A stretch of DNA of 64,000 bases from Lingula anatina. Lineage: Eukaryota > Animalia > Brachiopoda. Both the position numbers and the translations under genes were made by a program. The notes beneath the pieces were generated by a model, which was not told the origin of the DNA, did not search any database, and saw only the letters and a list, made by a program, of their open reading frames with translations. Where the stretch lies: NCBI GenBank assembly GCA_051362555.1, contig CM120647.1:15042651-15106650 (forward strand), in the 5' to 3' direction. Position 1 is the first letter of the stretch. Each line of letters opens with the position of its first letter. Below are positions 1 through 47,712 of the stretch, piece by piece.

Positions 1-3000
1 AGGCCGGGTCATTAAGCCAAGGCAGTGGCAGTTTGAGGCTGAACAAGACAAAGAGTTTAAGAAGAACAAGGAGGGTGACAGTGATGACGACGATGCTGAC
101 CTTGATTTGGAGAGTGGTGATGACATCACTGAAGAAGAAGTCGATCTAAGTGATGACGACGGGGAAGAGTTTGTTGCCAAGCTGTACCCAATGAAAAGAA
201 AGCGTGAGGCAGCAACAAACGGAGATGACGATGGAAATAACAGCAAAAGAGAGGCCTTAGATCTAGCAGATGAAGAGATTCAAGACCCAGAAGTCCTGTT
301 GGAGTTGCAGGATGGCTTGGAGCAAAAGGAAGACGACTCCACATACGGGTGCCCAGTTTGTGGGGGGACATTCTCCACTCTAGAAGAAGGCAGAGAACAC
401 ATGTCCCAAAAGCATCCAGACAACCTGAGCTACAAGTGTAAAGTATGTGGGGAAGTACTTGACAAACTTGAGTCTGGAAAAACCCACGTGCTAGAGAAGC
501 ATAGAGAAGAGGTGGTGGGATCCAAGGACTTGGACTGGGAGTTGAATATGGATATTGAAGAGTCCTTCGATGGCAAGCACTACGTGTGCCCCGAGTGTGG
601 GAAGAAGTTCGACAAGCCTCGGTATCTTAAAAACCATTTCCCAGTGCACACTGGGAAATACACTTGCGCTGCGTGTCACAAGGTGTTTGCCCGGGCAGAG
701 AGTCTGGAGAAACACATCTGCAGTGCCAAGGTGGAAGTGAAGAAAACCCATTTCTGCCAGATCTGTAACTTGTCCTTCTCAAAGAAGTTGTACCTCTTCC
801 GTCACATGGCAGCTCACACAGGAGAATTCATGTGTGAGCGCTGCAAGACGATGTTCTCTCGCAAAAAGGCACTGGAGTGGCATTTGTACAAGTGCAACCC
901 AGCTCAACTTTCTGCAAAATCCAAGAACCATGTCTTCCCATGCGACGAGTGCGGAAAGGTGTTCAGCAGACAGCTTGCTTTGGAAAACCACAAAATTGTT
1001 CACACGGGTCAGTTCAGGTGCAGCGTGTGCAAGAAGAGCTACTCCAGTAAAGAGCGACTTCAGGAGCATGTGTGCGTGGGAAGTGCTGCAAAGGGAGGCG
1101 AAGATGGCACAGGTGGGATGTTGTCCTCGGCGAAATCCAAATTCAAGTGTGAGCTCTGCGACAAGGCCTTCATCAGGAAAGAGGATGTGTTAAAGCACGA
1201 ATATAAATGCAAGGCCAAGTTCAGCATAGAGCAAGATGGTGTGGTCAAATGTGATGACTGCGGAGAAGAATTCACTGATGCCATCTTGTTCAGGGATCAC
1301 AAGGTGAAGCACCGTCACCCCCATGAGTGTGCCAAATGTGGCAAGGGGTTCGCCAGGAAGTTCTCCCACTTGGAGCATGAGAAAACGTGCACTGGAAAAG
1401 AAGGTGAGTTTTTTTTACTTTAATTTTTAGATAAAGTTTTTTTAAATTAATTAAATACTAATTTTGGATGTATGTTGAGCTCTGCCATATGAGATTTTTT
1501 AAAGGTTACATAGAGGATTGTGCACAACATGAGCAAAAAAAAAAAAAAAACAGGCAGGCAATTAAGAACAAAAATAAAAGACAAAAAGTAACTTGATTTA
1601 GTATATAAAATGATTCTTTATAGAAAAGGTGATAGTTAAGGTTTGAAGGGATGAAGATTGACAATTTCTTGACAAATATGACATATTTTCCTCACATCAA
1701 GATTAAGGGCTCATTCCCATTGACACTATCAGTTAAACAGATTAACACATCTAAAAAAAACATACTTCATATTCCGTCAGGTGCTGTAAACTGCACAGTG
1801 TGCAACAGAACGCTCTCAGACCCACGCTATCTGGATCGCCACATGCAGACACACGAGGAGCCGAACTACGAGTGCGAGTTCTGTGGGAAGAGCTTCTATC
1901 GCAAGGATTACCTAAACAACCACACATGTCGCAGGCCAGATGGGTCGGTGGTCAGGATGAAATACTCAGTCAGGTATGTAACAGATATTGCAGGAACTCG
2001 ATGAATAAAATTAATCAGTTGATTCAGTACTTTTATTATATATTCATATTTCAGTAACCATAGAAACTGACAGTCTTCAAATAAAAAATTTTTGATGAGT
2101 CCTCTCAGCAACCGATGTAAATTAGTAAAATTTAAAAAGCGTAAGGCTGAATTACGTATGTATTCATCGGGTAAGATACTAAGATTAATTACAGCTACGA
2201 CAGCAAGTTTGTGGCTTTTAATAGGCCTAACACCTGTAAGCCTACCTGCATACTATTGCATACATAAATCAAGGGATGAAGACCTACTGGTAGTTATGGA
2301 TGCCGATGGTAGTGCCATTTCCAGAAGGTGAGATCAATTCAGAATTGGGCAGATCCAGGAAACCTGACAATAATTAAGGTGACTTGTCCTTCGCGAGTAA
2401 CAGACTTTTGACTCAACCTTAATCTTAACCTTTTACAGGAAAGGAGTAGCCGAAATGGAGGACAAATATGTTTGCTACCTATGTGGAAAAACCTACATTA
2501 GCAAGAGCAATCTTAACAAGCATCTTAAAACCCATGGCGACAAGCATTTCTCCTGCGATGTCTGCCACAAAAAATTCCACATACGCCACCAGATGTTGGA
2601 GCACAAAAATGCTGTGCACACTAAGGAGCGCAAGTTTCAGTGTAACGAGTGCGGAAAGCTGCTGAAGACAAGGCTCACACTCTACGCCCACAAGAAACAG
2701 TTTCATGGCGCAATCACAAAAGTGTTCGCGTGTCAAACCTGTGGGAAGATATTCCGTCAGAAAGGGAATTTGATGAAGCACATGCTAATGCACGATCCCA
2801 AGAAGCACTTCAACTGTAACTACTGCCAGGCTTCGTTCAAATACCCAGAGCAACTGTACAGGCACACGCTTGAACATACGCAGGGCAAGAAACATGCGTG
2901 TGATCACTGCACCAAGAAGTTCGTGTTGCCGCATGAGCTGAAGAAGCACGTCCTGGAGTTTCACAGCGGAATGATGTATGTGTGCAGCCTTTGCTCGGAG

Positions 3001-4779
3001 ATGTGTCGATATCGCCACACACTACGACGCCATATCCAACGGAAACATCCAGGCAATGTGGGAATGCTACAGGTAATTGTTCTGTAGAGGGAAGGTACAG
3101 GTATAGAAAATAAAAAGAACGTGTTGTTCATATTAAGGTTTCAAAGTTTTATTTACGATGGAAGTTGATAGCCAAGTTTTGACTTTGGTAGTCATGACAC
3201 TTGTTTCCAAATTTTGGTGAGTCTAAAAAATTGTTAAGTCTTTTTGATTTAATGGGGCACATGTAATCCATGTTACAGGGTTCCTGAATCACAGAAAAAA
3301 AAAATAGAAATACTTCAGTACAAAAATGTAATAATTCACCCTAGATTCCTTTAACTATTGCAGTGAGGTTGTTCCTTGATAGTTCTTTTATTTAAAAACC
3401 ACTTTCCAGGACCCCAACTTCCTGCACACCCTGTTAAAGAAGGTGGACCAGCCTGATGAGCCCAGGATCCAGAGCAGCACCATCTCAGCTGGCAGGGCAG
3501 GAGGGAGTGTGGTAGAGAAGCCACCTCAGCACATTCTGGTCCAGATTCAGGATCCCAACCAGCAAACCAGACTGGTGGAGGTCCAGGGAGGACAGAATAT
3601 TGAGGTAATATTTAGGGAATTAAGATTTTGTGTTAAATTCATATTTTCATTTATTTGTTCAATTTTTTTTTCTTTTTTTTAAATGAAAAATTGGTCAAAA
3701 GATGATTAAAAAAAAAAGAATTTATCAAAAAAAGAATTTATCTTTTGTCAGCTTTAAAAACTTTGTTGTTTTGCATATTGTTGTTTAATGTAGGCATTAA
3801 AACTTAAGTCAGGAGAGCCTTGCTGATAAAAAATATTGACCATTACGTTTGGTTTCCATAGGACGGCACATCCCAGGTGATATTTGGAGAGCTTGGCGAG
3901 GGTCCAACTGGCCGTACCATCATACAGATGCCTGATGGGAGGCAGATAGAACTCACAGACAACACAGAGGTCAGTGGAAGTTGTTTCTGTGCTCAGAATT
4001 TTAAAATCTTCTTGGTTTTGAATTTGATTCATGATCGTGTCAACGTGACATTGGTTTTACAAGAACAAGAGCACATGTATAATGGTGGATGGGATTACTG
4101 GCACTGTGGATTAATTAAATGCCCTGTGCCACAAATTGACCTAAATTTCTTTTTTTTTTAGTAATTAGCCTATACAATGATGACCACAAACAACAGTATT
4201 TCTTTAAGTGATCCTTAAAACAGAAAAATTAAGACATGCAAAGATCTTGAACCTCAGTGCTACATGGGCAGTGCGTTTCCATATCCACGAGTAGATGATT
4301 ACTACGGCTGAGCCTGAATTTAAGCAGGTTGTGTTTATGTCCTCCCATATAAATGTTCAGAATGTTGCCTCCTCTTCCAGGTAATCCACATTCAACAAGG
4401 AGGCGAGCAGGGTGCAGGGGATGCCATCCCAACAACCGCTGCTGCAACCACAGGTGACCAGCTTGTCATGGAGAACCTCTCCAGTGATGTCGTAGAGGCC
4501 CTCCAGACCGCCCAAGCTCTGCAGTCTCTGTCCAGCAGCATAGATGGCGCCACCAGCAAAAGCATCAACTTGGCGGACTTAGCGTCTCAAATTGCTGCTT
4601 CTCAGATTCTTGCCACGGGAACTACAGGAAACCAAATGATTTCTACTACAGCACCTTCTGATGAGGGGACGGCGGCAGGTGACCAGGGACAGTATCTGTT
4701 AGTGCCGCTGGATTATGAGCAAGAACAGCATGCAGAACAGGGGCCTGTGCCACCTGTTGGTGAGCAGACAGATCTGTAG
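1..4779 (+). CDS. Multi-zinc-finger (C2H2/C2HC) transcription factor, 5' end outside the window; exons <1-1403, 1781-1973, 2274-2327, 2439-3072, 3410-3604, 3862-3969, 4381-4779
   Basis: Frame is open from the window start. About 20 CxxC...H..H/C fingers with TGK/TGE-type linkers. All introns are GT-AG with compatible phases (1,2,2,0,0,0). Acidic N-terminal part, Q/T/A-rich C-terminal tail, stop TAG at 4777-4779. The 54-nt exon 2274-2327 has a weak acceptor and is less certain. Confidence 0.88.
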
Positions 4780-5855
4780 ATGGTGCTGTTTAACCTTTCA
4801 AGAGGAGCTTTAGAAAAGAGAAAAAAATGAACAGCCCAAAAAAAAAATAAATAAATAAAATGGAGGATCAAGCTGTTTTTCAAACTTTGCTCTGCTGAAT
4901 TGATGACTGCTGCAACTGGCCAAAGGCAGAAATATATTGTTTGAAGCAAGTCTTAGTGTAGGGAAACTGTTATAGAACCCAGGTCTCACTAAAGTAAAGA
5001 CAAAACTCCATGATTCTCTTCCTTGAATTAATCTCATGTTTTTAATATTAGAGTTTAAATTGAATGGCAGCATATGGGTGTGATCAAAGCAAAATTAAAT
5101 ATATCTCAGAGTTCAGTCTTTGATGCAAATAATGAAAAGCATTGCTTTTAATTAACTGAACTGTTACTTTTAGTAACTTACATGAAGTAGTTGTGGTTAG
5201 TGTTGATTTTTGTGTGATGTTTTTTCAGATTTTACTTCTGCTGTTTTGTATAATTGTTAGTAAATGTTTGTTTTTGCAGGAAAAACTTGAATATAGTGAG
5301 AACAATGCTTATGTATTCGTACAAATAAAAACACCAAAAATTCTTTGTAAGATTATTATGAATGTTATTATTGTAGTTTTTTAACTGTTCGTCTGACCTC
5401 TTCCATAAGCAGTTGCCCAAAAAAATTAGCTGAATCATTTATTTGATACACTAGACTTAGCATAATTTAACATAATCACTCTGGAAATGGAAAAAAAATT
5501 ATTACAATTACTTTTAAGACATACATGGATGAGGTGTCTAAGGTGGAAAAAAGATTTGAGCAGGTGGTATTTATTAAATTTAAGAGAGAAAAAACATGCT
5601 ACAATACTTTTTTTAGCTAAACAATAATTCAGTTTAGTTGTGAAAAAATATGCAGTCTGCTGTATACAAATATTATACTAATTGTGAAGATTTCTCAAAC
5701 ATTTCACGAACAGTATCATTTTTTGTACATATTTCATGTATATTTCTTGACAAGTTTGAGGTAGGTCAAGATTAGACATTTGAATATCAATGAAATAACT
5801 GACAGTCATTTCTACACAGTTCCATTTTTACAGTCAGCAAAAACTTGTAGAATTT

Positions 5856-5876
5856 TTTATTGAATTTAACAATAAA
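5856..5876. terminator. Back-to-back poly(A) signals of the convergent zinc-finger (+, AATAAA 5871-5876) and SDR16C (-, AATAAA 5861-5856) genes
   Basis: Sequence tttatt-gaatttaac-aataaa lies between the two stop codons; base composition shifts from T-rich to A-rich around this point. Confidence 0.45.
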
Positions 5877-6874
5877 AATCTTTGATACGCAACAAGTCAA
5901 AACCCCTTTTTCTATTCTTTATATCACTTTTTGCTGGAAATAAATAGGAACGGTAGAGTAAATCAACTGTTTGAAATTTACAGAAATATGGCTCCACGAT
6001 GTATAGCATATCAACAGTTTCATAAAAAATATGGAGAAAATCTGGACAAATTTTGGCACTAATTACAATACTTCTGCTTGTTAATACTCACTTCAGTTCT
6101 GATGTACATATACATAAACTTGTGCACAAGACTAAGAATTGAACAAAACAATAAAACATCCACCAATGTGCCAATTAATGTTATAATGAAATATACTTAC
6201 AAGCCATAATCATGAACAGGATTTTACAATCATGATCGTTATTTAGCAAATCCACATTCCTTACAAAGGCAATAAATCTGATTAAAAAGTAACTAAGTTA
6301 AACTTAATATTAACATTTTTAATACAATAATGTAAACTGACAGCTCACTGTAAAAATTGAATTAAAGTGGCATTCAAGAATATTAGTTTCCTATGGATTA
6401 CATCACATATGAAATCACATACACTGGCAAAAGAAAAATATACACATGCTCTAATACTATTATTCAAAAAATTATTCTTATTGTAAACTGGGTAATATTG
6501 TAATTTTTGAAGAAAAGCAAAGTTAATAGCTAAGTTTACTATCATACTATCATTCTAACAATTGGGGAATTTTAAGTTAATCACTTATAAGTACAATTTA
6601 AACATATGCAAAAGGACAATTAGGTTAATTGGCTAAGTTAGAAAAAAAATTCTTATGGAGTAACACAGGTTTTATGAAAAATTTAAAAATGGCTAATAAA
6701 AAAAAAATAAATAAAAATAATTCACTGGCTAGAGAACACAAAACATGATTGAAAAGTGTCCAATTCCTAGCTGATTATGATATAAGATCGAAAACTAGAT
6801 TTAAACAAAAGAAAAAAAGGTAAAATAAAATGTTGGCATAACTCTATTTTCTTTGCTCTGGTTAGGTAATTTAT

Positions 6875-6968
6875 CTAATCTTTCTTTGCTCTTCCCTTGA
6901 AGTCATCCATACAGTTATTAATTCCAAAGGCCTGTGCTAAAAGAAGGCCAACCTTCACTGGAATAAGA
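6875..6968 (-). CDS. SDR16C alternative last exon C ([31 protein letters not shown])
   Basis: Strong acceptor ttttttcttttcag, 94 nt, phase 2, stop TAG; aligns without gaps to exons A and B. Confidence 0.88.
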
Positions 6969-9900
6969 CTGAAAAGAAAAAAAAATATTACAAATTTAAA
7001 ATTATTTCATAAAATCTAATGAACAAATAAATAAATATGAATGAATGCATAATGTCGAAAATACAGGAAAAAAAAACATGGTGAAAAAAAAAAAATTGCA
7101 AATTAAAATAAGCAAGCTGAAAAAAATGAATTCTTAACAAGGAGGTAATAATAGTTTCAGCAAATAGCACTGTTTAATGTAAGTAACACAATACTGGCAA
7201 GCTATGAAAGTTACCAATCATAATGGCACATCCGATGCCTGGCAAACTGCCTAAACTAACACACTCGCAACAGAACAAAAGCATGCAGTTGCCACAAATT
7301 GCAATAAACTATTTGCAAACTGGAAACTAGTAGATATGTTGGTTACATGAATTAAAAGGGTTTAATCAATAGCAATATACAGAAAGAATAAAACTTGCGA
7401 ATTAGTTATGAAAGTTAAAGGGATAACAACTCTTTGTATGAGATCTATATTTTGCAGTTAAAACATTAATTGTTAACAACTCATAGAAATATAATAAATT
7501 CTATTTTACCACAAAAATGGCAGTTGAGGCAATTATGCTGAAATCTGTGCTTGCCATCTGACCATATGTGACCTCCATAGATGGCTATACTTTATAATAA
7601 TCTCTTAAGAAATGGATTCATTTACCACTGGTAAGTATGGGAAATTGTTGTTCATCCCAGGAAAGTTCTTTTTTTTTTCTTTTGGCCATAATGAATAGTT
7701 ATCCTTTTAACCATCACATATAGGCATATCCAATCCCAGCACAATGTCACATTTAACACACCCAAAGGGTCACCATCACCTTCTATGAACAATTTGTGAA
7801 AAGGAAATGACATGATGCATCATCCACGGGTGCCAAAAATTAAATTCAAGAACTCAATCTACCACTATATAAATGTAGGTCTGCAATGAAGATGGTATTA
7901 CATCTACTATGCCACACACTGAACCCAACATATGATAAATCATTGACTTTAAGTCTTGCTATTGCCTACCAGTTGTGAAAATCAATAAACCCAAATATCT
8001 CAAGTCAGTGCTCTAAAGAATTCTACTGACACCTAGTGCTTCAGAGAAAATAAGAAAAAAAAAACCAAGAAACAGGAGCTAGGTGCCATCTATGGATTAG
8101 TACTAAGTAAAAAGGCCATGCAGACCCATATATCTTCACCTTCAGTAAGAAATTACTGTAATAACATCAATTCTGTTTTGCTCGTCCACGGAATGTGTCC
8201 ATAAAGGTTTGGTTGCCCATGAATTCACATATCAGGCGGGTGAGATGGAATGGAAGCAGCCTCCACAGAGAACAGAATCAAAAATTTGTTTTTATTTTTT
8301 TATTAATCTGAGGTTCTGTTATCCACACATTTAAAAAAAAATCAATATGTGATGACATCATGCAGATTTGACATTCATTTTTTTTTTTTTTTTGGGGGGG
8401 GGGTCCTTAGCTCATTCCAAGGGCTTAAAATGATGTGTGATTGAATTTACAATTTGCTCCTCTTTACACTCTTCCACTCTATAAACATTCCATCCAAGTT
8501 TTAAAGTGGTAAAACAGGATTTTGGTGAAAATTCCAAGGGAAAAAAATAGCTGGTCAAAGAAAGCATGTTTATTTCAAATAAGTCTATTTTTTTTTTAAA
8601 TTTTTGTTTGATAAATCATTTGGGGTAAGAAAATTCTACACATTTACTTGTTATTTCCCTAACAGCAATTTAGATGGCAGTATGGAGAACATGACTGCTT
8701 TCTGATAAATAAAATGCAAGTAACTGCAATATTCTTCTGAATTATTCTTCATACAAGCTGAAAGCAGCGATGTACTTCTTCAAGCATATAAGTAGGCAAA
8801 AGCTGTTCAGCCATTTGTGCCAAAGCAGAAAAAACATACATGTAAAGCCACTCTACAAGTAACTATTCCATCTTCTTTCTCCCAATAAATGTATCCATCA
8901 TTTTAGTTGTGCCAAAGAAGTTACAGAGTAGAAAGTTCACTTTTACAGGTAGATACCTACATGGAAAAGGGCACAAAATGAACTCTTCAGTAGAGTAAGG
9001 TGTGATAACTGGTGTCTCATCTAACACAATATTGTGTTGAAACACAAGCATGTCACACCCAACACAATATTGTGTTGAAACACCAGGGATTCAAACTTAA
9101 AGCAATATTGCATTGTGTCTGACAAGCTTGTTCCCTAAACTCTTTGACACATATAAAAATAAGCTGAACACATGACATCGCATGTAACATAATTATCATA
9201 TAATTCCACACATAACTGAAATACAGAAATTCTTAATACATTTTTGTTGTGCCCAATTGTGTCATGTGAAATGAAGAATTTTAATCTTCAGCCAACACAT
9301 ATGCTGTAAAGCCTCTCACAGAAAAATATTTTCTTATATTAATAATAGTTTATAACTTAACCTTGTAAGCAGTATCCTGGAGTAGTGATGAATTACACTC
9401 TATGTCTGATGGACAGAGGTTTCTTTTTAAAAAACTTCAAAATTCTGGGTGCTATTCTATACAGACTAGTGGCGCCACCTATACTCACCCTTTCAAAGCC
9501 AAGAAAAAGTAAAGAACCCGAGGTATGTAAACAATCTCCTGGTTTATAAGAACAGCATCTACAATTCTACTGGCCGCATAATCCTGTTCGACAATTGGCA
9601 GGACCTTAGGAAACCTGGTGGAAAAAAGGAAATAATGAAAACGCTTTGGCTTACAAGCAGTGAGAAGCATGTGTATAGTATAAATTGCAGCATACATGAA
9701 CAATGAGTGTGTATATGTGCACGTGTGTGTGCACAAATGCCTGGGCACACATGTGTATAAGGAGCACTCTCTGAGCACTCACCCTAGAAAAATAAGGCTT
9801 AATGTTACTGAAGCCACTGCATGTGTTTCATATCCCTTTCAAAAATAATAATTATTATAGCATTTTAACTGCGACGTTCTACTTTTGATATTATTATCAT

Positions 9901-11776
9901 TATTTCTTTTATAATATCAATACTAATGTAACCCCCCCCCCCCCCCCGGGGGGGGTCGGCTGTCCATACCTTGTCTTCACACCTTCAAACATCCCAGTGT
10001 TGATATAATAGGGACATACCACAGTGGTGTGGACGCCATCTTTACCCATGGCGTTCAGCTCATATTTCAGTGATTCGTCAAAGCCAACAGCGGCAAATTT
10101 ACTGGCGCAGTAGTCAGCAAGGCCTGTGACCCCAACAAGCCCAGCAGAGCTTGCAATCGACACCAGGTGTCCATGGTTTTTACGTAGCATCGATGGTAGG
10201 AAGGCTTTTACTGTCTGAAAGGAGATTGAATGACTGATGTTATGCAATTTATAAATACTGTTGAAATTCATGCCAATTTATATTTATTTCTTTATAAATT
10301 TCGTTAGTTATAGTTTTGAATGAAGACTTGTTTGAAAATTACTTGATTTTCTTAAGTTTTTAAACATTTTTATTTTTCTATCATTTTACTGTATATAAAA
10401 ACATAATGATAATTATTTAAATTAATAAATTCAATTATTCTTTGTTTTATACTTGATAATGCTGAATAAATATTATCACCATTTCTCTTTTTTTCCAATA
10501 AACTGATTTCAAAAATTGACAACCATCTCTACATGGTAAATGGGTCTTTCTTCACAGAACAGAACAGAAATGGGCATTAGTCATAAAAAAACAAATTTTA
10601 CTCTAGATAAATCAATAGTATTCCAATTTAACAAAATAATAAAATGCTATGCCTTTATATATATATATATATATATTTTTTTTTTTTTTCTTACAAGAAA
10701 GACTATACTTAAATAAGGTGGAATACTAGTAATTAAGTTCTATAAATCTATTTTGAACTGAAGAGGACCATATTTTGGGTGTTGTACTTTGGACCAATCT
10801 TCAGGCTTAAGTTCATTTGTTAAACTGTCCCCAGATATCAGGTTATATCAATATTTGCAATGAATCAGATATCAAACATTCCTCAGGCAACTGTCCTTTG
10901 ATTAAACCCCACTCATTAAAAATAATCAACATTTGAAAACTTTATCACAGAAGCTCATAAACATTAAAGTGTAAGTTATAATATGGTTAAGATTCAATTT
11001 ATTCCCATAATAAATGTACTCAGTTTCTTGAGTATATGGCTCACCAAAATTTCCTGTCACTTTCTCTCATATATTATGTACACTGTTAATATACAATGTA
11101 AAACTATATTGAATTTTGTAAAAAAAAATATGCAAATCAAAAACCTTCACTACAGATAAAACTTTTGGTCTGTAAGAAGATATAGCTCAGACAGAAATAT
11201 GACTGTCAAGTAAATATTAACAAAAAATACAAATCAAAAACTCATATGCTTCTGTTACAGAGAGAACATGTCAGAAACCTCATAAATGTGTCAAGTAAAT
11301 ATAAAATTGGTATCAGTGTGTGCACTGGTATATAATCTAAAGGTCAACTTTATGACCTGATTTCCTACATTCCTGCTACAATGATAAAAAGTGACCTTTA
11401 GGTTCTGTTGTCATTGTAGAATACAGTGCCACACATGTCCTGAATGTTTGATCACTCAAGTCAGGTTAGAAATGTACAATAGCCATGGGTCAGAGTGATA
11501 CGTGGAGTTCTAATCAGTTTATGGACATACACTCCATCTTGCTCTGTCACAGGCACATGCACAAACTCTCTTCTTCACATGCATATATATACAAGCACAT
11601 AAGCACACACATTATTTCATACACTTGTACAGTATATACCCAGCAAAGTCATGCATATGGAGACAAACACTTGCTCATTAACAGTCTCTTTCTCTCTCTC
11701 TCCATGTCTTTTCTTTCCTTTCTCTCCCTCTCTCTCTCTCTCTAGCTAGTTTGCATTCTCTCTTTCTCTCTCTCTG

Positions 11777-11823
<47 letters not shown>

Positions 11824-12826
11824 CACACACACACACACACATTCTCAGCAAATGAGCAGCCCAATTTCAAGCATCAGAACCCACTTCCTCACCACTCACC
11901 CAGAAATGCGCCATGGAGTTCACTGCCATAGTTTTCTCAATCATGTTGTCGGGACAGTCAAGGTACTTCTTCCCTGTCACAATTCCTGCATTGTTGACTA
12001 GTATGGTGACATCTAGACCATCTTGTTTAACCTGGATTGAAACATACAAACAATGTTACCTGAAATTATATATTTACATACAAATTTGGATGCCTGCAAT
12101 AAAAATGTAAAAACAAAGTCAGCTCAACAATGATTTGCCTCTAAAAATTTAAAATAATTTTTATGTAATATCTACATCTAGGCATTCTCGTTTTACCTGA
12201 AATTTAATACACAAATTATGATAAATAGAATCAAAGTATACAATGTGACAACATGGAGTATGGAAGTTCTGATCGAGGCATAAGCTGATTATATCCTACC
12301 AATCTGAAACTAACAGTACCTGGACAAATATTTATTTAAAATAAATTGTCAATAATGAACTTCTATTACTTGAGGTATCCAGTACTGGTATCTAACTTTC
12401 TACTTTCCTTACATATTTTTTTTCTTTTCTAAGGTAATAACTGGAAAAATATATACATCAACCTTTTAAAGGCAAATCATTGTTGAGCTGACTTTGTTTT
12501 AACATTTTTATTTCAAATCAAAGCAATTATTACACCCAACTACCAAAAATTATAGGCAAATGAGAAATAATTTTTCAACAATTTAAAAGAAGTTCACTAT
12601 GAAAACCACCTTCTCTGCCACTGTGTATATTTCATCTCTCTTGCTGAGATCGCATTTATAAGTAAACACTCTGCCGCCATATTTCTTTATTTCCGTTGCC
12701 GTCTCTTCAATCGCTGTCTCATTGATATCCCACAGGACTAGTTTAGCACCCTTCTTGGCAAACTTGATGGCCATAAGTCGCCCAATACCGCTACCTAAGG
12801 GATACAAGTGAGGGGTGTTAATATCA

Positions 12827-12859
<33 letters not shown>

Positions 12860-13874
12860 ATACTGTGGTCAAGCTCAGTACTGTGGTTTGGAGACAATCT
12901 AAAAATAGACAGATATTGTAAGTACTTTAATTAATATATATAATTAGAGGAACAAAAAAAAAAAATAAATATATATATATACTATAAAACATATCTATAA
13001 TATCATAACTTGTCTCAGAGGGGTTTTACTGTGCTACAAACTTGATGCAGCTCAAATCAAACCAGCTACAGAAGGCAAAAATATAAGAGTTTACAATTAA
13101 TAAAGGCTGCCAGGCTGAAAAAGTCAGAAAATTATGGTGTGGGGTCCATATGCAATGCCAATAGCCAATTGTTGGGAAAACAACAACCCTTAATAAATAA
13201 ATCTCTTTCAAAAATCATTTGTTTATCAATTTGTTTGTTTATCTACATTGATTTAAATAATTTGCAAAGGTTATTAAATAATGAAATAAAATTATGTTCT
13301 CCCTGGTACTAACTGGTGTGACCTTAGGAGTCTTGACTTGAGGTTAAAGTTTTATATCACAAACAATAGCTTAAGACCTGTACATCATAAACTGTACAGT
13401 ACAAGTACATGAACTTCAATGCCAGGCAAAAACTACAACTGATTCTAGAGAATAATTTTAAATAATCATAATATTTTAAATTAATAATATATTTAATTTA
13501 TGATAATTTTAATGTATTATATTTTACATTTAAAAATAGAATCTCTATTGATAAAACACCTTCACTATAAGGTTCAATCAAACCCAAACATCGGGTGTTA
13601 TTAGAAAAATAATAATGGCAAAAAAGTACATAATAGTTATAATAATGTAATGAAAGTGATGACTAGTAAACCAATTGAGAAAAAAATTGATGACTAAACC
13701 TAAAATTAATTTTACTCTACCTGCTCCAGTGACCAACACTGTATCTTCCGTAATGTCTTTCATTCGCCAACTCCATGGTATAAACAGCAATATAAAGGCC
13801 TCTAACAGGTAATAAACTGTAAAAATTAGCGTCTTCAGCGTCTCCAACGCGAGCTCTGCAGGCGTCTCGGCCAT
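6875..13874 (-). CDS. SDR16C5: Epidermal retinol dehydrogenase 2 / SDR16C family short-chain dehydrogenase, 311 aa; exons 13874-13721, 12794-12610, 12031-11900, 10214-9970, 9614-9489 plus one of three alternative last exons
   Basis: N-terminal hydrophobic anchor, TGAGSGIG Rossmann motif, [23 protein letters not shown] catalytic motif, [15 protein letters not shown] introns in phases 1,0,0,2,2; total 936 nt. The symbol is family-level (SDR16C5/RDH10-like). Confidence 0.9.
7419..7706. mobile_element. Diverged Kolobok-like MITE (TTAA-flanked), same family as 29438-29774 in inverted orientation
   Basis: ttaa|agggataacaactc ... gttatcct|ttaa; interior aligns by eye to the reverse complement of 29438-29774 with an internal deletion. 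Confidence 0.7.
8167..8260 (-). CDS. SDR16C alternative last exon B ([31 protein letters not shown])
   Basis: Acceptor ttctgttctctgtggag (rare GAG), 94 nt, phase 2, stop TGA; aligns without gaps to exons A and C. Confidence 0.75.
8863..8956 (-). CDS. SDR16C alternative last exon A ([31 protein letters not shown])
   Basis: Acceptor ttttccatgtag, 94 nt, phase 2, stop TAG; minus-strand AATAAA at 8574-8569. Confidence 0.85.
11688..11840. repeat. Compound (CT)n/(CA)n microsatellite
   Basis: Seen directly in SDR16C intron 3. Confidence 0.9.
12098..12512. mobile_element. MITE-like foldback element with ~48-bp inverted repeats
   Basis: aataaaaatgtaaaaacaaagtcagctcaacaatgatttgcctctaaaa (12098-12146) is nearly the reverse complement of 12464-12512. 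Confidence 0.6.
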
Positions 13875-20142: not shown

Positions 20143-22448
20143 GTTTCTCAAATCAACCTGACAATGTACATAGCACCCTGCGCAGGCTTTGTTGGTATTC
20201 CATATATACTATTAGTATGTCCCAAGGGAATGTAACAGAGACCTTTTCTTCATAGGCTGACTATAAAAAAAGGAACCGAGGAAGCAGTAGTCCCAATCAC
20301 AGCCAACGAGAACCAAGACAGGCTACAATTAAGTGACCTCATTTTGTTAGAGAATCTCTCTCTAATTGAATTATCTCTATACTGGGTGTTGTACCATCAG
20401 GCCACAGGGCCCAACCCATAGTGCATGTACTTGTGGTATCTCAAGGCTGACATTGATGATGTTGATGTTCAAATCAGGTAATTTATTTTTCCTGATGTGT
20501 GTATTAAAATGGAAAAGTGTAAAGATAAATGTATGGGCATACTAGAACGAGAAATCAAACTTGTCTATTGTGCACATAGCTTTAATTTGAGGTCCTAATT
20601 GAGTAAAAAAAATCAGATTATTTGTAGAGCCTATTTATCTCACACACACACACCCTCCCTCATTAAAAAGAGTACAAGAAGGGAAAAAAGAAAAAAGAAA
20701 CCATGTTTACTAGTACTACATGTAGCAGTGAGAATGTGAAAAAGAGTTACACCAAACCCAGGACACCTCATTTTCCTCTGAAGGCTAGTTTAGATGACTT
20801 CAAGATATGAACAAAAAACTATGTGAACGCAAATGAAATCAACCTTGCTAATTCCAGGAGTCAGACAGATAACTAAAGACTACAGCTTTACATATTTACT
20901 TAGGAAGCTGCCCTAAATGTTTTCACACAGCCCCCAGGATAGCTTGGAGGGTGCATGCTTCCACTACAGAACACTGGATCGAGAGTTGGTCTTAACTTTT
21001 TCACCAAAATTTAGACCCATTTCTGTACAAGATTTATCTGCAGTAGTTCACTGTGATGACCTAACATCCATTTCTTTCTTGAAACAAGGCAGGTGCTGGC
21101 CCATAGCCAGCGATTTCAAGGTGAGGGGGGTCTTTTTCTGAAAAAGTTGACCTTCTACCACAAAATCTCAATTTGATCTAGAACAATTTCTGCTTAGAGC
21201 TGACCTTTTCCCAACAAAAATGGTGGTTTGTTCACCTCCCCCCCCCCCAGAACTCCCCACACCAGCTTACAGACTAAGGTTGGATCTTATTGCCTTGAAT
21301 TTGAATACAACTGATTTATTTTGGGTCAAAGTTGACTCAAGTATTATTTTTCAAAAAATTATATCAGCTTTCGGTTGCAAAACTATTCTGTGAAAACTGG
21401 ACCCTGGATTTGTTTCGTCCAGACACTAATAAGATCCACCTTGATAATTACCTGGATTGGACAGCTAATGGACAGCTAATGGGCAGTGATGGACAAACAG
21501 CTGTCTGACCAGGTATAATACACCACAAAACACATGCCAGATTAAGTGAGAGATTAAGGAAAAGATTAAGAAGGAATCTGGCAAAAGAAAATGACCTCTG
21601 GAGGCACTTTCTGAGTTTTTACTAGGCCTTCAGAAAATTTCTTGGACTACTCTGGAAGTGCTTTGAGTAGAAGAGTAGAAAAGTCACAGTTATTGATAGA
21701 TCTCTCAGGGACTTGGTTTAAAACTTTCAGGTGTAAAGCTATGTGATGTAGTACACTACATGTGTGATGTTTTTTTTGACATAGTTGTATATATTGTATT
21801 ATTTTTTAATTTTAATTTGGTCTTAGGCTAGTTGTTCTCCTCTACTAGTTTTCAGGTGTAAGAGACTGGAACAGTTACTCCATGGAAGAGAGTAATGCAT
21901 GAGCATACTAGAATTTAAAGTTTAATTTTTTTTATTTACAAAAATAAAAAAACAGTAAAAACAAAAAAGATAAACTCAAGTACAAGTAATCCCGAAAATA
22001 TAAGATTAAAATAAGATAATAGATGATTTTAATCTAAACATGGTTTCTGATTTATCTTTAATTTCTTACTTCTTTCAGGGTTTAAAAATGAAGTGAAGAA
22101 GATGTAGAACCTGCTTTCTTGCTGGGACCAAATGTAAGGAATATCAGTTATTATGACACATTGGAGCCAACCTCATGGTATTTTCAAGGGAATCCGTTTG
22201 CTGATCACAATTACAATGACATCCAGTAAACAGAATGGTTCAGAAATTCAATTCATGATACGCCTAAGAAAAATGACTATTTCCTAATGTTTGCCAAAAG
22301 ACCATAGTAATAAGTCTTCAGATTTCTAAGCAAATATGACATAAATTCTGCAACAATGGTGTCCTAATGCTTTTACCAAAGAGGTAAGGCTACTAGTACC
22401 ATCTCTGTTACTTGTTGATGCGAGCTCATCGTTCACCTACAAAACAAG

Positions 22449-25400
22449 ATGGCGTCCTATGAAAATATCTCCAGCAGAGGGCGTGGGTGGCTAAATCGAA
22501 TCAAATTATGGAAACTTATCATAATTCTGTCAATCATTTTGATCACTGTTCCCTTGGTAGCACATTATTATTTATCCAGCATCGGGGACGAAGGTCAAGT
22601 GGGTGGAGGTCGAAGATCAAGGTCTACCATGAATCACAATGAAGAGCCCAATTGCTGTGGGCAACCGTCGAGTTTAAGGTCACAAATTGAGGAATTGAAA
22701 AGAATAAAGGCGAGCGTAAATAAAGAGTTGGTTGAGATGGAAAGTCGGCAGCAGAAGTTGAGGGTGGAAATTCAAGGATATAATACCCACATCGAGAAAT
22801 TAAAAAATCAGTATGAAACAACAAACAAGGACCTGGAAAAACTGAAAGTTAGCATTGAGCAAGCCAGGATTGCTATGGCCGAAGCCGCAGAGAGAAACAT
22901 GCCAGAAATTCATGCTCCACGGAGAATATTGCCCAGTGCTGATGACGAGGTTTATATTTCGCCACCTTTTTTACCTCATTCGTGCAGCATGCACACATGT
23001 TTTGATTATTCCCGTTGTGCGTTATCATCACAGTTCCCAGTATATTTCTACAATCCTGATGACAGAGATTTTCCATCAATAGAGTTGAACTCTTTAGTAA
23101 AGGAGGCTGTGAAAAGTGTCCTGGGTGGAACACCATACAGGACCCATGATGCAACTGCCGCCTGTGTGTTTATAGTGCTTGTTGGGGAGTCCAATGTCCT
23201 AAACAACAAAGCTGCTTTTCAGGAACAGCTGTATAATCTACCCCATTGGAAAGGCGATGGTAGAAATCACATATTACTCAACCTTCCTATGACTAATACT
23301 CATCGAGACATTTTTCAGGGTGTTAACACAGGGCGCGCCATGCTGGCCCAGTCTTCTTTCACTGCCAACCAATTTAGGCCAGGATTTGATGTTGTCCTGC
23401 CGCCAAATTTTGGGAGAGTTTCTGGAGATTTGTGGGACGATTTGCAAAGTCTGGTGCCATTGAGGAAGAAGTATCTCTTGTCTTTCATTGGAGAGTACAC
23501 AAGGCACGAGAGCAACGGCACCTCAGCCAATCAGATTGGAGGAGACAAATACATTCGGAATGGAGTGTTCTCCAATCAAGGTGACTTTAACAGTGCCAGG
23601 ATTTTGACTGTAAATCCAAATAACCATGACAGGCACATACTCTCTGTTCAGGAGGTTACTAGTGATGATATTTTTGTGGTCAGTACTTTGAAAAAAATGT
23701 ACATGTCCACGCAAGATAGTTTCTTCTTTCAGTATAGCTGTGATAAAGAGGGAGTCCAAGATGAACCCACAGTTTGGACTCTCTGTTCTCCAGATTTGAA
23801 GAGACACGAGGTTCTTAAACAGTCAACATTCAGTCTCATATTGGCACCTAGCAATTTCAGTCTGGTGTCAACAATTTCCATTCAAACGAGGCTTTACGAG
23901 GCATTGAAATACGGCGCAGTGCCAGTCATCGTGGGTGAGCACCTGCGGTTGCCGTTTGAGGATATTCTTGACTGGCGAAAGGCAGCCATTATTGTTCCTT
24001 CAGCCAGAATAACAGAGCTTCATTTTTTCATCAGAACGATATCCGATCCAGACCTCTTCCAGCTGAGATACACCGGTAGATTATATTTCGAGCAGTATAT
24101 GGGTTCCACAAAACACATACTGAATACATTACTAGCAGGTTTAAGGTTTAGATTGCAGATTCCTCCATTACCTACTAAAGCTGAACCATCACCAAGTATT
24201 TTCGATAATTCCACGGTGCCTTTAAAAATGGATGCTGCTGATATCGAACCAGAGAGTGATGAGGTTCTAGGGCCAACGGAGCCGCCATTTCCATCACAGG
24301 AATATACTAGGAATTTCACAATATCGCGTGAAGTTTTTCATCACCCCGGTGATCCGTTCCATCTCTATCCTCACACGCCATTCCAACCTCTACTTGGCTC
24401 TGAAGCTAAATTTCTGGGTAAGTATTAAAACTGAAAAAATGCATTTAGAATAAAAAAATCTATGAGGGCACAGTTTTATGAAATTAAAGTGCCCTATGTT
24501 CAAGAAACAAGAAGTTTTTTACAGTCTGGCTCTAAGAAATAGATTACAATGTGATAACTTGATAAAATGCATGAGAGGGACTAAAAAGTACAGACACAAT
24601 TAAAAATGTAAATATTATTTTAAAAGTGAAATATATATATTTTATCTTCATTAACTTCTACATTAAAGGTTTTCTTACACAAAGAGTTTATAGATATGAA
24701 TTCTTTAACTGAAATTGTTTTTCAGTAGTTAGGAATAAATGGGCTTATTCTAACTTGAAATAAGATATATTGGTATTTTTCATACATAAACCAGTTTGCT
24801 CAAATAAAATCGATTTTTAATAATTTTTTCCAGGTTCAGGGCTGGGATTCCGTCCAATAGGGAAAGGTGCAGGGGGTTCTGGGAAGGAATTTAACGAGGC
24901 ACTGGGGGGAAATTTGCCTCGAGAACAGTTTACCAGTAAGATATGAATTACTAGTAAATATTTATTTAAAAAAAAACTGGGTCATTATTTTTTCATTGAT
25001 AATGAATTAATTTTCTTTAACTTATTCAGTCAGAAACGAAATGGTGGAAATGTTAAATTAACAGAGATGGACATTTTGGCTCAGGGTTGTATTGAAAGGG
25101 AGGGGGGAGTGCAGAATCCTTTCTAAATAAATTTGTGGGAAGTACAAAGTAAAAAAAAAATTAAATTAAATTGTGTTATTTTTCAGTTGTGATGCTCACA
25201 TACGAGAGAGAATCAGTCCTCATTAATGCCATACAGAGACTGAAAGGATTACCATTTCTCAATAAAGTTGTGGTCGTTTGGAACAGTCCTGGAAGGCCAT
25301 CGCCAGACCTGCGCTGGCCTGATATAGGTGTGCCAGTACATGTAAGTACAATATAAAGAAACAGAATGATTTTCCAGAAATTCCTGTGGTCCCGCTCAGT

Positions 25401-37484: not shown

Positions 37485-39496
37485 ATGAAGTTGTATAGCC
37501 GCCTTACCTGTAGATGTCTAGTAGCAGTCGGGATAGGTATTGCCATCGTATCAGTGACGATGGTTTTCAAAAGGAAAATCTGGAGGACTACTTCGGCAGC
37601 AAGGCATGAGACAAAATCAGGAAGGGAAGCAAAGGCAAGTTTCCCGCTTATATTATTTAAGGGAAGTTAAACTCCAATGATCGTTGATTTAAAGTGGAAG
37701 TTAACATTCAATGACCAGATTGATACATCCGAAATTCAATCATTGCAATTTGGAACGCATTAACATGTTGGTTGTCCAAAGTCACTTTTTAAATTGAATT
37801 GTTGCAATAGGCAGTGAGTGAGGGGCAAGGTAAAGCCGGTGGAGCCAAATGCAAGTCAAAATACACCCATCCTTTCTTTGTGGAACTGGACGAAGATAAC
37901 GATTTTGTGTATGTACAGCTACCTGTAGATGACAGAGAGACGATGGTCTATAATGGTATGACGAAGAAGGAGTATGATATATTAGAAATGGACTATCTCA
38001 GGTAAAATGAAAATTGTTCTACCTGTACTATTGAAAAAAATTACCAAAACTGCAAAATATTTGTGTAGTTATTATTTATGTTGGCGTTCAGTGTTCAGGG
38101 ATGACTTTCAAGCCAGCAAAATTATGCACATGTAATAACTTCATACTATTCCTATTACAATATTATGAGACTCTTTGCGGTATAGAGTCTATTAGGATTG
38201 GCATATATTTCCCTTTGCAGATATATCGTTACCCAACAGTACGACTGCCGTGAACGGGTGCGTGCTGGGAACATAGACGAAGGCGGCTGGGAAGTATGCT
38301 TGGACCCGCCGTTTAACATCAAGAGAAACCAGTGTCTGGTCTACTCTTTTGGGTATATTTGCTAAATATACTGCTAAATTTTCATAACCATTAACATTAA
38401 TTTATCAATTTATTAATAAATGTATTTATTTATCTCTTTTACCTGTACACGTAGGCCCTACTACGACCAATGTTATTTTACCATTTCACACTACTCAAAA
38501 TAAATAATATCCTTAACTTGATAGGATAAAAAATGACTGGTCTTTTGATGACTTCATGGTGGAAAAGGGCTGCGAAGTACATTCGTTTGATCCAACGTAA
38601 GTTAAGTCGTTATATTGCTATGAAAAATCTATATTTTTCTTGATCAGAATAGTTCATATTTCAAAAAATGGCTTTACGTTCAAGAAATGGTAAAACCTAT
38701 TTAGATTATCTAGTTGTCGGTTCTGACTTGGAAAAACATGAAGCAAATAACATTTTATATGCCGGTCGCTTTTTTTTCCTAACTGAATAATCTATCTAAA
38801 TTCAATATTTTGTCTGTAGCATAGGAAGAGAAGACTATCAGAGACATACCCACAATTACTTCCATAATTTGGGCCTAGATGGTATCGATGGATTGAAGCT
38901 GATTAAAAAGCAAAATGTATCAGTGAAGAAACTAAGTAGCATCATGGACATACTTGGTCATACAAAGGTCAGTGACCCAGGCATGATGGTGTGGTCATAC
39001 AAAGGTCAGTGACCCAGGTATGGGATAGTGTGGTCATACAAAGGTCAGTGACCCAGGCGTGAGATAGCGTGAATACATAAGTCGATATATATTGCCAAGA
39101 ATGTGCAATCACTTGTATTACTTTAAAAATGTGGAAACCATCTTTAATTTGCCTTTTAAAATACTTTAACTGTTTCAGAAAACTATAGACTTTCTGAAAT
39201 TCGACATCGAAATGTCGGAGTGGTCTGCTATAAAGACCATGATAGAAGATAGAAGTATACTAAAAGTGAAGCAGATGGCCGCTGAGCTCCACACACCGTT
39301 TAACAGTCGTGTTATACCTACGATGGAACAGATGCAGCTTATCAAGGACTTGAAGAACACTGGATTCAAAATATTCTTTTCATCGTACCAATTCAGTCCT
39401 TTCTGCAGAAGATTTTCTCCTCAAACGAAGCGCCTGGCTCACGCTTTTATAAATATACATTTTGTCAATACTAATTTTCTGAAAGAGAGGCAATAA
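37485..39496 (+). CDS. METTL24: METTL24-like (Methyltransf_22) protein, copy 1, 336 aa; exons 37485-37634, 37811-38001, 38221-38352, 38525-38596, 38820-38967, 39179-39496
   Basis: N-terminal signal anchor; motifs C.E.VRAGNIDEGGWEVC, CLVYSFGI.NDWSFD, GCEVHSFDP, LGH..IDFLKFDIE.SEW. Intron 1 uses a GC donor (AAG|GCAAGT). Total 1011 nt in frame. The symbol is family-level. Confidence 0.85.
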
Positions 39497-40012
39497 AGAA
39501 ATGACATCCCCATAACTTACTGTAAATAGGATTAGTTTAATGGTTTCGATGAAATATCACTGTCATTTCTGGCAGTTATTGTTCAAATCCAATAATTATT
39601 CCAAGGAAGGATAATTGTTAGGCATGCTTATACAAACCTGTATTTTGTCAAAACAAAGTTTTTTGAGGACAGATTATAAATGGTTTACATTATTTGTGCA
39701 CAAAGACGGGAACCACTTAAAACAATAAAAAGGTCTAACTGTCACTGTCCGTTGTTTTACGCCAATCTAGATCTTTCTTGCTGTCACATGACCTGATGCC
39801 GCAGGGCCAAATCACGTGACAACATGTCTGCAGCCTTTTGAACCTTCTCTCTTCCATTCACGGAAGGCAACATTTTTACACGTACACTGTATTAATGATT
39901 GTTATGTGGTCTCAAGACATCATTAAACCAGTTAAGTGAAACCGTAAAAGGAATGGCTGCAATGCTGAATGTATATATGAAGTAGCCGACATTGCACGGA
40001 GCAGATAGAGCT

Positions 40013-40978
40013 AGATGTGAGCTGTGACTTGATTATTGTGATAGATTGTGTTAGCTGTGACCTGATTATGGTGACAGATTGTGTTAGCTGTTACCTGATT
40101 ATGGTGACAGATTGTGTTAGCTGTTACCTGATTATGGTGATAGATTGTGTAAGCTGTGACTTGATTATGGTGACAGATTGTGTTAGCTGTGACTTGATTA
40201 TTGTGATAGATTGTGTTAGCTGTGACTTGATTATGGTAATAGATTGTGTTAGCTGTGACTTGATTATGGTGATAGATTGTGTTAGCTGTGACTTGATTAT
40301 TGTGATAGATTGTGTTAGCATATATACATTCAGCATTGCAGCCATTCCTTTTACGGTTTCAGATTGTGTTAGCTGTGACTTGATTATGGTAATAGATTGT
40401 GTTAGCTGTGACTTGATTATGGTGATAGATTGTGTTAGCTGTGACTTGATTATTGTGATAGATTGTGTTAGCCGCGACTTGATTATGGTGATAGATTGTG
40501 TTAGTTGTGACTTGATTATGGTGATAGATTGTGTTAGCTGTGACTTGATTATGGTGATAGATTGTGTTAGCTGTGACTTGATTATGGTGATAGATTGTGT
40601 TAGCTGTGACTTGATTATGGTGATAGATTGTGTTAGCTGTGACTTGATTATTGTGATAGATTGTGTTAGCCGCGACTTGATTATGGTGATAGATTGTGTT
40701 AGCTATGACTTGATTATGGTGATAGATTGTGTTAGCTGTGACTTGATTATGGTGATAGATTGTGTTAGCTGTGACTTGATTATGGTGATAGATTGTGTTA
40801 GCTGTGACTTGATTATTGTGATAGATTGTGTTAGCCGCGACTTGATTATGGTGATAGATTGTGTTAGCTGTGACTTGATTATGGTGATAGATTGTTTTAG
40901 CTGTGACTTGATTATTGTGATACATTGTGTTAACTGCGACTCGATTATTGTGATAGATTGTGTTAGCTGCTTGATTGT
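40013..40978. repeat. 33-bp minisatellite (gattgtgttagctgtgacttgattatggtgata), ~28 units, interrupted at 40319-40361
   Basis: Seen directly; it explains the DCVSCDLIMVI pseudo-ORF. Confidence 0.95.
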
Positions 40979-41899: not shown

Positions 41900-42180
41900 T
41901 TGTTTTTTGTTTGTCACGAGCCTGACTGTAAACGTATGTCATGGTTTTTGATGAAATCTTCAGGATACACTACTAGGAATCACTACCCTCAAAGTGACTA
42001 GATTTTTGTAGTGAATCGTTGTCCGTATTAGGCCTACCATCTGGAAAATATACGGGATTCTTTATCACTGCGACATAGGACTAATAACTTTGACCGTTGT
42101 GCAATGAATATGCTCTCAACTATCACAATTTATTTGTGTAAAGTCCTTGGCGGAAGTCTAAGCTCTCCGCGTACTTGTTG
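41900..42180 (+). mobile_element. Truncated Helentron/HINE-like element downstream of METTL24 copy 2; homologous 3' end at ~52000-52085 downstream of copy 3
   Basis: 3' end ccttggcggaggtctgcgctctccgggtgcttttctagtt (clearest at 52047-52086), with a diverged version at 42146-42180. Confidence 0.5.
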
Positions 42181-42315
42181 TTATTATTATTAAATAAGCA
42201 GAATGGGAATAGTATTTCTCTCATTAGCAACAACCTTATATAAGATGGTCCCTTTGAATATATAAAGTAAAAGTCAGAAATGCAACCCTCTTATCCACTG
42301 ACATACAGTAACTTT

Positions 42316-47681: not shown

Positions 47682-47712
<31 letters not shown>

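What the first reader, a model, noticed from the sequence alone, without database searches (positions are those of the whole stretch)
6875..9489. Three tandem, intact, mutually exclusive last exons give an SDR16C retinol dehydrogenase three interchangeable C-termini
Seen: after the phase-2 donor at 9489 there are three exons (8956-8863, 8260-8167, 6968-6875), each exactly 94 nt with its own acceptor and stop. They encode [60 protein letters not shown] and [30 protein letters not shown]. The pattern P..........G....MD.F.GR.K is kept while the rest has diverged strongly and the flanks are unalignable, which points to old duplications under purifying selection. Established: SDR C-terminal segments shape the substrate pocket and membrane or lipid-droplet association, and C-terminal dilysine motifs mediate ER retrieval. 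Inference: one catalytic core is given three specificities or localisations by alternative last-exon choice (A ends in canonical KKxx, C in KKD, B has a single K). I know of no description of such a cassette in this family. Exons B and C are invisible in the ORF track.
Basis: partly seen in the sequence, partly recalled or inferred. Interest (0 to 1): 0.85.

Follow-up and report, generated by a model that had tools for sequence, protein, structure and literature searches.

The report
Swappable tail exons in brachiopod dehydrogenase
A lamp-shell (brachiopod) gene for a retinol-dehydrogenase-type enzyme carries three old copies of its last coding exon, two of which are spliced into RNA while the third is intact but was not seen; swapping them likely changes the segment predicted to touch membranes and plug the substrate pocket, and protein records show two to four such tails in mussels, clams, oysters, octopus and fish.

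Summary
The three 94-nt exons are real. The host is Lingula, and the gene is SDR16C5/RDHE2-like. Each exon completes a 311-aa protein, and a tail profile built without Lingula finds exactly these three in the window. RNA reads join the core to C (28) and to B (10), but also B to C (17). So B is a stop-bearing cassette exon with C as its 3' UTR, not an exclusive last exon. RefSeq already lists the B and C proteins. A, not B or C, is the unannotated exon; no junction to it was listed in 4 runs. A is still fully conserved, and its closest matches are the alternative tails of octopus and squid-like cephalopods. Same-core, different-tail isoforms start at the same junction in bivalves (up to four in Mytilus), coleoids and teleosts, and venerid clams appear to have split two tails between two genes. 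The swapped segment corresponds to the second amphipathic helix and substrate-plugging peptide of HSD17B13. The dilysine idea is weak. Verdict: a known kind of splicing (tandem-duplicated C-terminal exon substitution) that my searches did not find described in this family; the functional effect is inferred.

The parts
13721..13874 (-). Coding exon 1 (ATG at 13874; N-terminal hydrophobic helix, start of TGAGSGIG motif)
   Evidence: matches RefSeq XP_013380984.1
12610..12794 (-). Coding exon 2
   Evidence: protein match
11900..12031 (-). Coding exon 3 (NNAG)
   Evidence: protein match
9970..10214 (-). Coding exon 4 (catalytic S and YCASK)
   Evidence: exon 4-5 joint in all 4 runs, 7/8/4/11 reads
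9489..9614 (-). Coding exon 5, last shared exon; phase-2 donor in codon G281
8863..8956 (-). Tail exon A (residues 282-311): intact, not in the RefSeq cluster, no RNA junction listed; closest to coleoid cephalopod alternative tails
8834..8842 (-). Candidate donor CAT|GTATGT 23 nt after the stop of A (unproven; such sites occur in 11 of 105 intron windows); AATAAA at 8574, 8304 and 8296 is the alternative, A as a true last exon
8140..8260 (-). Tail exon B: 121-nt cassette, coding 8260-8167, then stop, 27 nt and donor at 8139; gives RefSeq isoform X2
   Evidence: joints 9489 to 8260 (10 reads) and 8140 to 6968 (17 reads)
6875..6968 (-). Tail exon C, coding part of the terminal exon; gives RefSeq isoform X1 when B is skipped and is 3' UTR when B is included
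   Evidence: joint 9489 to 6968 in all 4 runs (28 reads)
5550..6874 (-). Shared 3' UTR of the terminal exon; end approximate (AATAAA at 5861, 5575, 5443)
   Evidence: minus-strand RNA depth; hexamer scan

Best explanation
A single Lingula SDR16C5-like gene uses alternative splicing of tandem-duplicated final coding exons to put tail B or tail C (and likely tail A) on an identical catalytic core, which likely retunes the helix predicted to lie on the membrane and the peptide predicted to gate the substrate pocket. Shown: exon 5 splices to C (default, all 4 runs) or to B. When B is included, its stop ends the protein and B splices on to C, which becomes UTR. Inferred: B's stop lies 27 nt before the last junction, inside the recalled 50-55 nt window, so the mRNA should escape junction-dependent decay and keep almost the same 3' UTR. 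Inferred: A is used in tissues or stages not sampled, as a cassette (donor 8839) or with its own poly(A) site. Inferred from HSD17B13: residues 284-295 are the second helix of the amphipathic helix-turn-helix and 296-311 the peptide that occupies the substrate site, so tail choice would alter substrate preference, turnover or lipid-droplet/ER affinity without touching the NAD-binding and catalytic residues. Inferred from trees: the duplications are older than the genus, and at least A may predate the brachiopod-mollusc split.
For: Splice joints: core to C 6/12/3/7, core to B 7/3/0/0, B to C 11/6/0/0 in X1/X2/X4/X7, so B inclusion differs between samples. RefSeq X1 = C and X2 = B, each differing from the window's prediction at 2 of 311 residues. 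No AATAAA lies between B's stop and C. Selection: low third-position identity with conserved second positions; 4 of 4 listed read differences in B/C synonymous; A scores as well as C against non-Lingula tails. Recurrence: 10 of 30 hand-picked protein clusters hold two or more homologous tails on the same core, switching at the same junction. Structure: both isoform models have helices 272-282 and 285-295; the best structural match is HSD17B13 8g89_B (Z 35.0, rmsd 2.7, 274 aligned, model 23-305 on chain 18-292); the tail's Pro284 aligns with HSD17B13 Pro274, where the P274-N286 helix and N286-K300 plug begin (PMC10449848 passages). Age: A groups with four coleoid tails (100/99 and 97/97) and ranks 1, 1, 5 and 3 of 185 non-coleoid tails for them, while B and C rank 43-135; an AU test rejects A+B+C as one clade (p 0.032).
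Against: A had no listed junction and near-zero depth (0, 0, 0, 0.06) in 4 runs, and no A isoform is in the 3-member Lingula cluster. Junction counts are small (about 6-25% of each run read; 4 of 9 listed runs laid). No enzyme or localisation data exist. The plug role comes from HSD17B13, whose last 15 residues do not share the MDxFxGR motif (supplement rows), and the last 10 residues of both models have low confidence. Tail trees have only 26 columns; the A+coleoid group was named after seeing the similarity, and with all 70 rows its support was 86/90. The core tree does not resolve orthology between the Lingula and coleoid genes. Other species' isoforms are protein annotations whose DNA I did not see; 20 of the 30 clusters showed no second homologous tail.
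Confidence: 0.62

Rival explanations
1. Tail choice mainly changes ER retrieval through C-terminal dilysine signals (A KKxx, C and B weaker).
For: A ends KKxx while B and C have only Lys at -3. KKxx or KxKxx is present in 46 of 190 family tails, and dilysine status differs between isoforms in Mytilus and the decapodiform cluster.
Against: Lys at -3 is in 169 of 190 tails and all three Lingula tails, so B and C, the two proven isoforms, fall in the same class. The coleoid tails most like A lack KKxx. Most differences lie in the helix, and in HSD17B13 the N-terminal helix is the main anchor.
Confidence: 0.13
2. Only B and C are live; A is a silent or decaying duplicate.
For: No listed junction to A against 38 core-to-tail junction reads; not annotated; the candidate donor after A is no better than background (11 of 105 windows).
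Against: A keeps acceptor, frame, length and stop position despite about 50% nucleotide divergence from B and C. It matches the family profile at 2e-12 and specifically resembles tails expressed in cephalopods. An old dead exon would not keep this.
Confidence: 0.12
3. B inclusion is mainly regulatory or near-neutral: a stop-bearing cassette that tunes mRNA level, with the protein isoforms functionally equivalent.
For: B is an internal exon with a stop and a weak GAG acceptor; it is the most divergent tail; B joints were listed in only one of three studies.
Against: B encodes a full-length homologous tail whose model folds like C; both listed differences are synonymous; the stop is only 27 nt from the last junction; B transcripts reach roughly a quarter to over half of junction reads in X1 and X2; distinct tail types persist across species in bivalves and coleoids.
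Confidence: 0.1
4. The exons are remnants of separate partial gene copies or an assembly artefact.
For: RefSeq holds a second partial copy (exon 4 to tail C) on another scaffold (P0003).
Against: One core only in the window; reads join the single exon 5 to both B and C, and B to C; RefSeq X1 and X2 share one locus.
Confidence: 0.02

Closest known systems
Tandem exon duplication-derived C-terminal substitutions (77 of 236 human events; PMC8373072, PMC9741552; passages and supplementary tables seen)
   Same: Homologous duplicated 3' coding exons give alternative C-termini on an identical core; such events are often ancient and recur convergently in the same gene families.
   Different: Those papers ascribe C-terminal swaps mainly to alternative poly(A); here B is a stop-bearing cassette spliced to C. 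SDR16C5, HSD17B*, RDH10 and DHRS* are absent from the human catalogue, and the papers note that such regions tend to avoid ligand sites, whereas this one is predicted to gate one.
KRAS4A/KRAS4B (PMC9882654, PMC9663995; passages seen)
   Same: Alternative duplicated fourth exons swap a C-terminal membrane-targeting segment on an identical catalytic domain. That 4A carries a stop and 4B then becomes UTR, as with B and C here, is recalled, not read in these passages.
   Different: A GTPase with lipidated tails, vertebrate-specific; here an oxidoreductase with three tails and an amphipathic helix plus substrate plug.
Human HSD17B13 (SDR16C3), structures 8G89/8G84/8G9V (PMC10449848; passages seen)
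   Same: Same fold (Z 35); last intron in the same block and in phase 2; its last exon encodes the P274-N286 helix and the peptide that blocks the substrate site; losing it (isoD) destabilises the enzyme.
   Different: Single last exon; isoD is a truncation, not a homologous swap; the distal tail sequence differs from the MDxFxGR type.
SDR16C5/RDHE2 and RefSeq Lingula 'epidermal retinol dehydrogenase 2' isoforms X1-X3 (XP_013380984.1, XP_013380986.1, XP_013380987.1)
   Same: This gene; X1 carries tail C and X2 tail B.
   Different: Automatic annotation only: no tail A, no note that the tails are homologous, and no activity measured.

Membership tests
Classical SDR, SDR16C family | adh_short domain with TGxxxGxG, NNAG and the N-S-Y-K tetrad (YxxxK) | tested here: met
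   PF00106 E 4e-51; TGAGSGIG at 49, NNAG at 126, N151, S179-S180, YCASK at 192; same GAGSGxG/YCASK consensus as human SDR16C4/5
Classical SDR, SDR16C family | Closest characterised relatives are SDR16C members | tested here: met
   Top PDB hits HSD17B13 and HSD17B11 (E 1e-72 to 1e-68, next 1e-35); top named homologues RDHE2/SDR16C5-like; four of five intron phases match human SDR16C5
Classical SDR, SDR16C family | N-terminal hydrophobic membrane helix and C-terminal helix-turn-helix | tested here: met
   Models show H5-31, H272-282, H285-295; superpose on 8g89_B
Retinol dehydrogenase (activity) | NAD-dependent oxidation of retinol | not testable with these tools
   The name comes from automatic annotation; no assay
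Tandem exon duplication-derived C-terminal substitution | Adjacent homologous 3' coding exons in one gene | tested here: met
Tandem exon duplication-derived C-terminal substitution | Transcripts translate one or the other, giving isoforms identical but for the homologous region | tested here: met
   B and C: joints and RefSeq X1/X2
Tandem exon duplication-derived C-terminal substitution | Exon A is spliced in | tested here: inconclusive
   No listed joint in 4 shallowly read runs
Mutually exclusive alternative last exons | Exons never occur in the same mRNA; each has its own 3' end | tested here: not met
   17 reads join B (8140) to C (6968); no AATAAA between B and C
Docking-site/selector exon clusters (Dscam type, recalled) | Competing long-range RNA pairings between introns | tested here: inconclusive
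   Best duplexes (-20.6 to -25.3 kcal/mol) were no stronger than 8 shuffles each; no orthologous DNA was available for covariation

The most novel reading that the evidence does not exclude
The last intron of SDR16C5-like genes is a hotspot for an ancient tail-switch. The lophotrochozoan ancestor already carried duplicated final exons, and Lingula exon A and the coleoid alternative exon descend from one of them. Lineages then added copies (three in Lingula, up to four in Mytilus), split the tails between gene duplicates (venerid clams), or re-invented the switch (teleosts). The switch exchanges the substrate plug and membrane helix, so one gene yields enzymes with different lipid substrates.
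Probability: 0.35. Interest if true: 0.75.

Novelty: new member of a known kind. Interest (0 to 1): 0.55.

Why it matters
The physiological substrates of SDR16C enzymes (RDH10, RDHE2, HSD17B11 and the liver-disease target HSD17B13) and the role of the C-terminal peptide that blocks the HSD17B13 active site are open questions. These isoforms are natural swap experiments: an identical core with different plugs, kept by selection in several phyla. They make the question 'does the tail set substrate choice or localisation?' directly testable. The system also offers a clean case for exon duplication, convergence, and the splitting of splice forms between gene duplicates. The splicing mechanism itself is of a known class and two of the three isoforms are already in RefSeq, which caps the novelty.

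Tried and rejected
No whole genome is held for this window, so no genome-wide paralogue check was possible. No RNA holder was listed by the index; nine same-species raw-read runs were offered and four were laid, so A's use in the other five is open. A metagenome scan (best 80 of 579 loci) gave about 19 apparently eukaryotic transcript loci, none with a second tail in its 3' UTR; the four loci with two tail hits appear to hold neighbouring genes. This is uninformative, because those species may have a single tail. A tail-region search returned mostly unnamed metagenomic, apparently bacterial, relatives. Long-range intron pairing was no better than shuffles; no telling repeats lie around the exons. 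Read pile-ups at 7415-7650 (multi-copy repeat) and near 9947 (poly-C/G tract) were set aside as unrelated. Slight depth beyond B's donor (7972-8138) could be read-through or low-complexity mapping and was not resolved. Aberrant non-homologous tails in annotations (Pomacea, Labrus, Anabas) were not counted. Literature searches over openly licensed PMC and bioRxiv listed no description of alternative homologous tails in SDR16C genes; subscription journals are not covered. A search for the HSD17B13 splice coordinate found nothing, and the KRAS passages did not state the UTR arrangement. Earlier scan findings: none. No complex prediction was run.

Full report
Observation. The minus strand carries a six-exon SDR gene: exons 13874-13721, 12794-12610, 12031-11900, 10214-9970 and 9614-9489, then three 94-nt candidates A (8956-8863), B (8260-8167) and C (6968-6875). 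Each completes a 311-aa frame. The copies share 47-51 of 94 nt and 11-14 of 30 residues, with second codon positions conserved (19-21 of 30) and third positions near saturation (9-13 of 30). A profile of 67 tails from other species finds exactly these three in the window (6e-14, 2e-12, 7e-5; next 0.03). There is one core only.

Identity. Exon 4 is 99-100% identical to Lingula anatina RefSeq proteins. RefSeq X1 carries tail C, X2 tail B, and X3 is an N-terminally shortened C form; the 3-member cluster has no A form. The window's predictions differ from X1 and X2 at 2 of 311 residues. Pfam, motifs and the nearest solved structures place it in SDR16C. Four of five intron phases match human SDR16C5, including the last, phase-2 intron (supplement rows of PMC9859523). 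'Retinol dehydrogenase' is an annotation, not a measured activity.

RNA. Four of nine offered same-species runs were laid on 5300-10300, reading about 6% of X1, X2 and X4 and 25% of X7. Listed joints (threshold 3 reads): exon 5 to C 6/12/3/7; exon 5 to B 7/3/0/0; and, unexpectedly, 8140 to C 11/6/0/0. B is therefore a 121-nt cassette whose stop lies 27 nt before its donor, and C serves as UTR in the B isoform. No AATAAA lies between B and C. The 50-55 nt rule for escaping junction-dependent decay is recalled. No joint to A was listed, and depth in its bin was 0, 0, 0, 0.06. With 38 core-to-tail junction reads, A is a minor form at best in these samples; X7 differs from the window at many sites and may lose reads at the 92% threshold. 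A has a possible donor 23 nt after its stop (5 of 7 consensus positions, which 11 of 105 intron windows also reach) and AATAAA downstream. Of the 40 read differences displayed (120 more were hidden), 17 fall in coding exons: 14 synonymous, including 4 of 4 in B and C.

Other animals. I looked up 30 protein clusters, chosen for isoform names or several members, so this is no unbiased rate; 10 held two or more homologous tails on the same core. All switch at the residue matching G281. They are Lingula; Dreissena; Crassostrea virginica; Saccostrea; Octopus sinensis and O. bimaculoides; an unnamed cluster containing a Sepia protein; Mytilus (three tails in M. edulis and M. galloprovincialis, four in M. 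trossulus); an unnamed bivalve-like cluster; wrasses; and salmonids, whose second tail is much more diverged. Mya and Magallana show the same across two clusters each. Haliotis, Patella, scallop, Biomphalaria, tubeworm and Nematostella clusters showed one tail type. These are protein annotations; I saw no DNA for them, so their exon architecture is unknown.

Age. On 26 aligned tail columns, A groups with four coleoid tails: 100/99 with 68 rows (two diverged teleost tails left out), 97/97 under a mixture model with 67 rows (one more long branch left out), and 86/90 (SH-aLRT/bootstrap) with all 70 rows. The group was named after I saw the similarity. A ranks 1, 1, 5 and 3 of 185 non-coleoid tails for those four, B and C rank 43-135, and the other Octopus tail ranks A at 127. 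C is nearest to the Owenia tail (20 of 26 identical, not strongly supported), and B has no clear partner. An AU test rejects A+B+C as one clade at p 0.032. Two tail types each form supported groups across Dreissena, Mya, Mercenaria and Ruditapes, while the six venerid gene cores form one group (SH-aLRT 82, quick tree). This suggests that venerids duplicated the gene later and kept one annotated tail per copy. Convergence and unresolved core orthology remain real alternatives.

Mechanism. Models of both annotated isoforms have helices at 272-282 and 285-295 with a low-confidence end (mean pLDDT 84 and 91). The C model matches HSD17B13 best (8g89_B, Z 35.0, rmsd 2.7, 274 aligned, reaching residue 305). 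The tail's invariant Pro284 aligns with HSD17B13 Pro274. In HSD17B13, P260-N286 forms an amphipathic helix-turn-helix on the membrane, N286-K300 blocks the substrate site and is displaced by inhibitors, and loss of this exon destabilises the protein (PMC10449848, passages). The swapped exon is thus the second helix plus the plug. The three helices differ in hydrophobic moment (A 0.27, B 0.54, C 0.37). Transfer of the plug role to this subfamily is inference, since the distal sequence differs. The dilysine reading is weak: among 190 unique tails held (mostly animal), Lys at -3 occurs in 169, KKxx in 42 and KxKxx in 4; B and C fall in the same class, and the coleoid A-like tails lack KKxx.

What is known. 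C-terminal substitutions from tandem exon duplication are an established class (77 human events; PMC8373072 and PMC9741552, passages). SDR16C5, HSD17B, RDH10 and DHRS genes do not occur in the first paper's supplementary table, nor SDR16C5 and HSD17B in the second's. KRAS4A/4B is the closest analogue (PMC9882654, PMC9663995, passages); its stop-cassette layout is recalled. PMC9859523 surveys SDR gene structure; 'alternative' and 'Lingula' do not occur in its main text (supplement parts 2 and 4 and search rows seen, not the whole file). Seven paper searches (listings only, apart from the papers named) gave no description of this switch in SDR16C; subscription literature is not covered.

Verdict. 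A real, expressed and conserved C-terminal switch, with the architecture corrected (B is a cassette, A unproven) and a structurally plausible but untested function. It is a new member of a known kind, made more interesting by its recurrence across phyla at a segment that gates the active site of a medically studied enzyme family. Interest 0.55.

Noticed in passing
window 12201-12166 and 12095-12146 / 12464-12515 (intron 2): A decayed partial copy of the exon 3 acceptor and start (24 of 36 nt identical) lies between the arms of a 52-nt, 94% inverted repeat: a local duplication-inversion or pseudo-exon.
   Followed up: partly
window 7415-7650 (intron between B and C): A multi-copy transcribed repeat: high depth on both strands, many loose ends and opposite-strand joints in all 4 runs; no clear terminal inverted repeat.
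   Followed up: partly
window about 5300-5900: A plus-strand C2H2 zinc-finger gene (2401-3087 and neighbours) appears to end tail-to-tail with this gene; stranded reads of both directions overlap at about 5470-5970.
   Followed up: partly
window 39170-54051, minus strand: Three near-identical tandem copies of a Methyltransf_22/FkbM-like gene (matching exons at about 39.2, 42.3 and 52.3 kb; weak Pfam scores on the exons tested).
   Followed up: partly
window 22419-24428, plus strand: A 669-codon single-exon stretch with an Exostosin GT47 domain, EXTL3-like by recall, upstream and divergent from the SDR gene.
   Followed up: partly
window 58260-58649, plus strand: An exon of a second, unrelated short-chain dehydrogenase (PF00106 E 1.5e-7).
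   Followed up: partly
P0003 (XP_013386956.1): RefSeq holds a partial second copy (exon 4 to tail C) on another Lingula scaffold, nearly identical to this gene; possibly an uncollapsed haplotype.
   Followed up: no
P0170, P0180, P0094, P0120 (teleost sdr16c5a): Salmonids, wrasses, sea breams and cichlids share a diverged second tail that keeps the helix but loses the MDxFxGR motif, suggesting an independent, lineage-wide alternative exon.
   Followed up: partly
run X7 on window 9489-10214: Reads of X7 differ from the window at many mostly synonymous sites, more than X1, X2 and X4, pointing to a divergent Lingula lineage under the same species label.
   Followed up: no
window 39981-41057: A long tandem array of a short unit that gives open frames on both strands; probably a minisatellite.
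   Followed up: no
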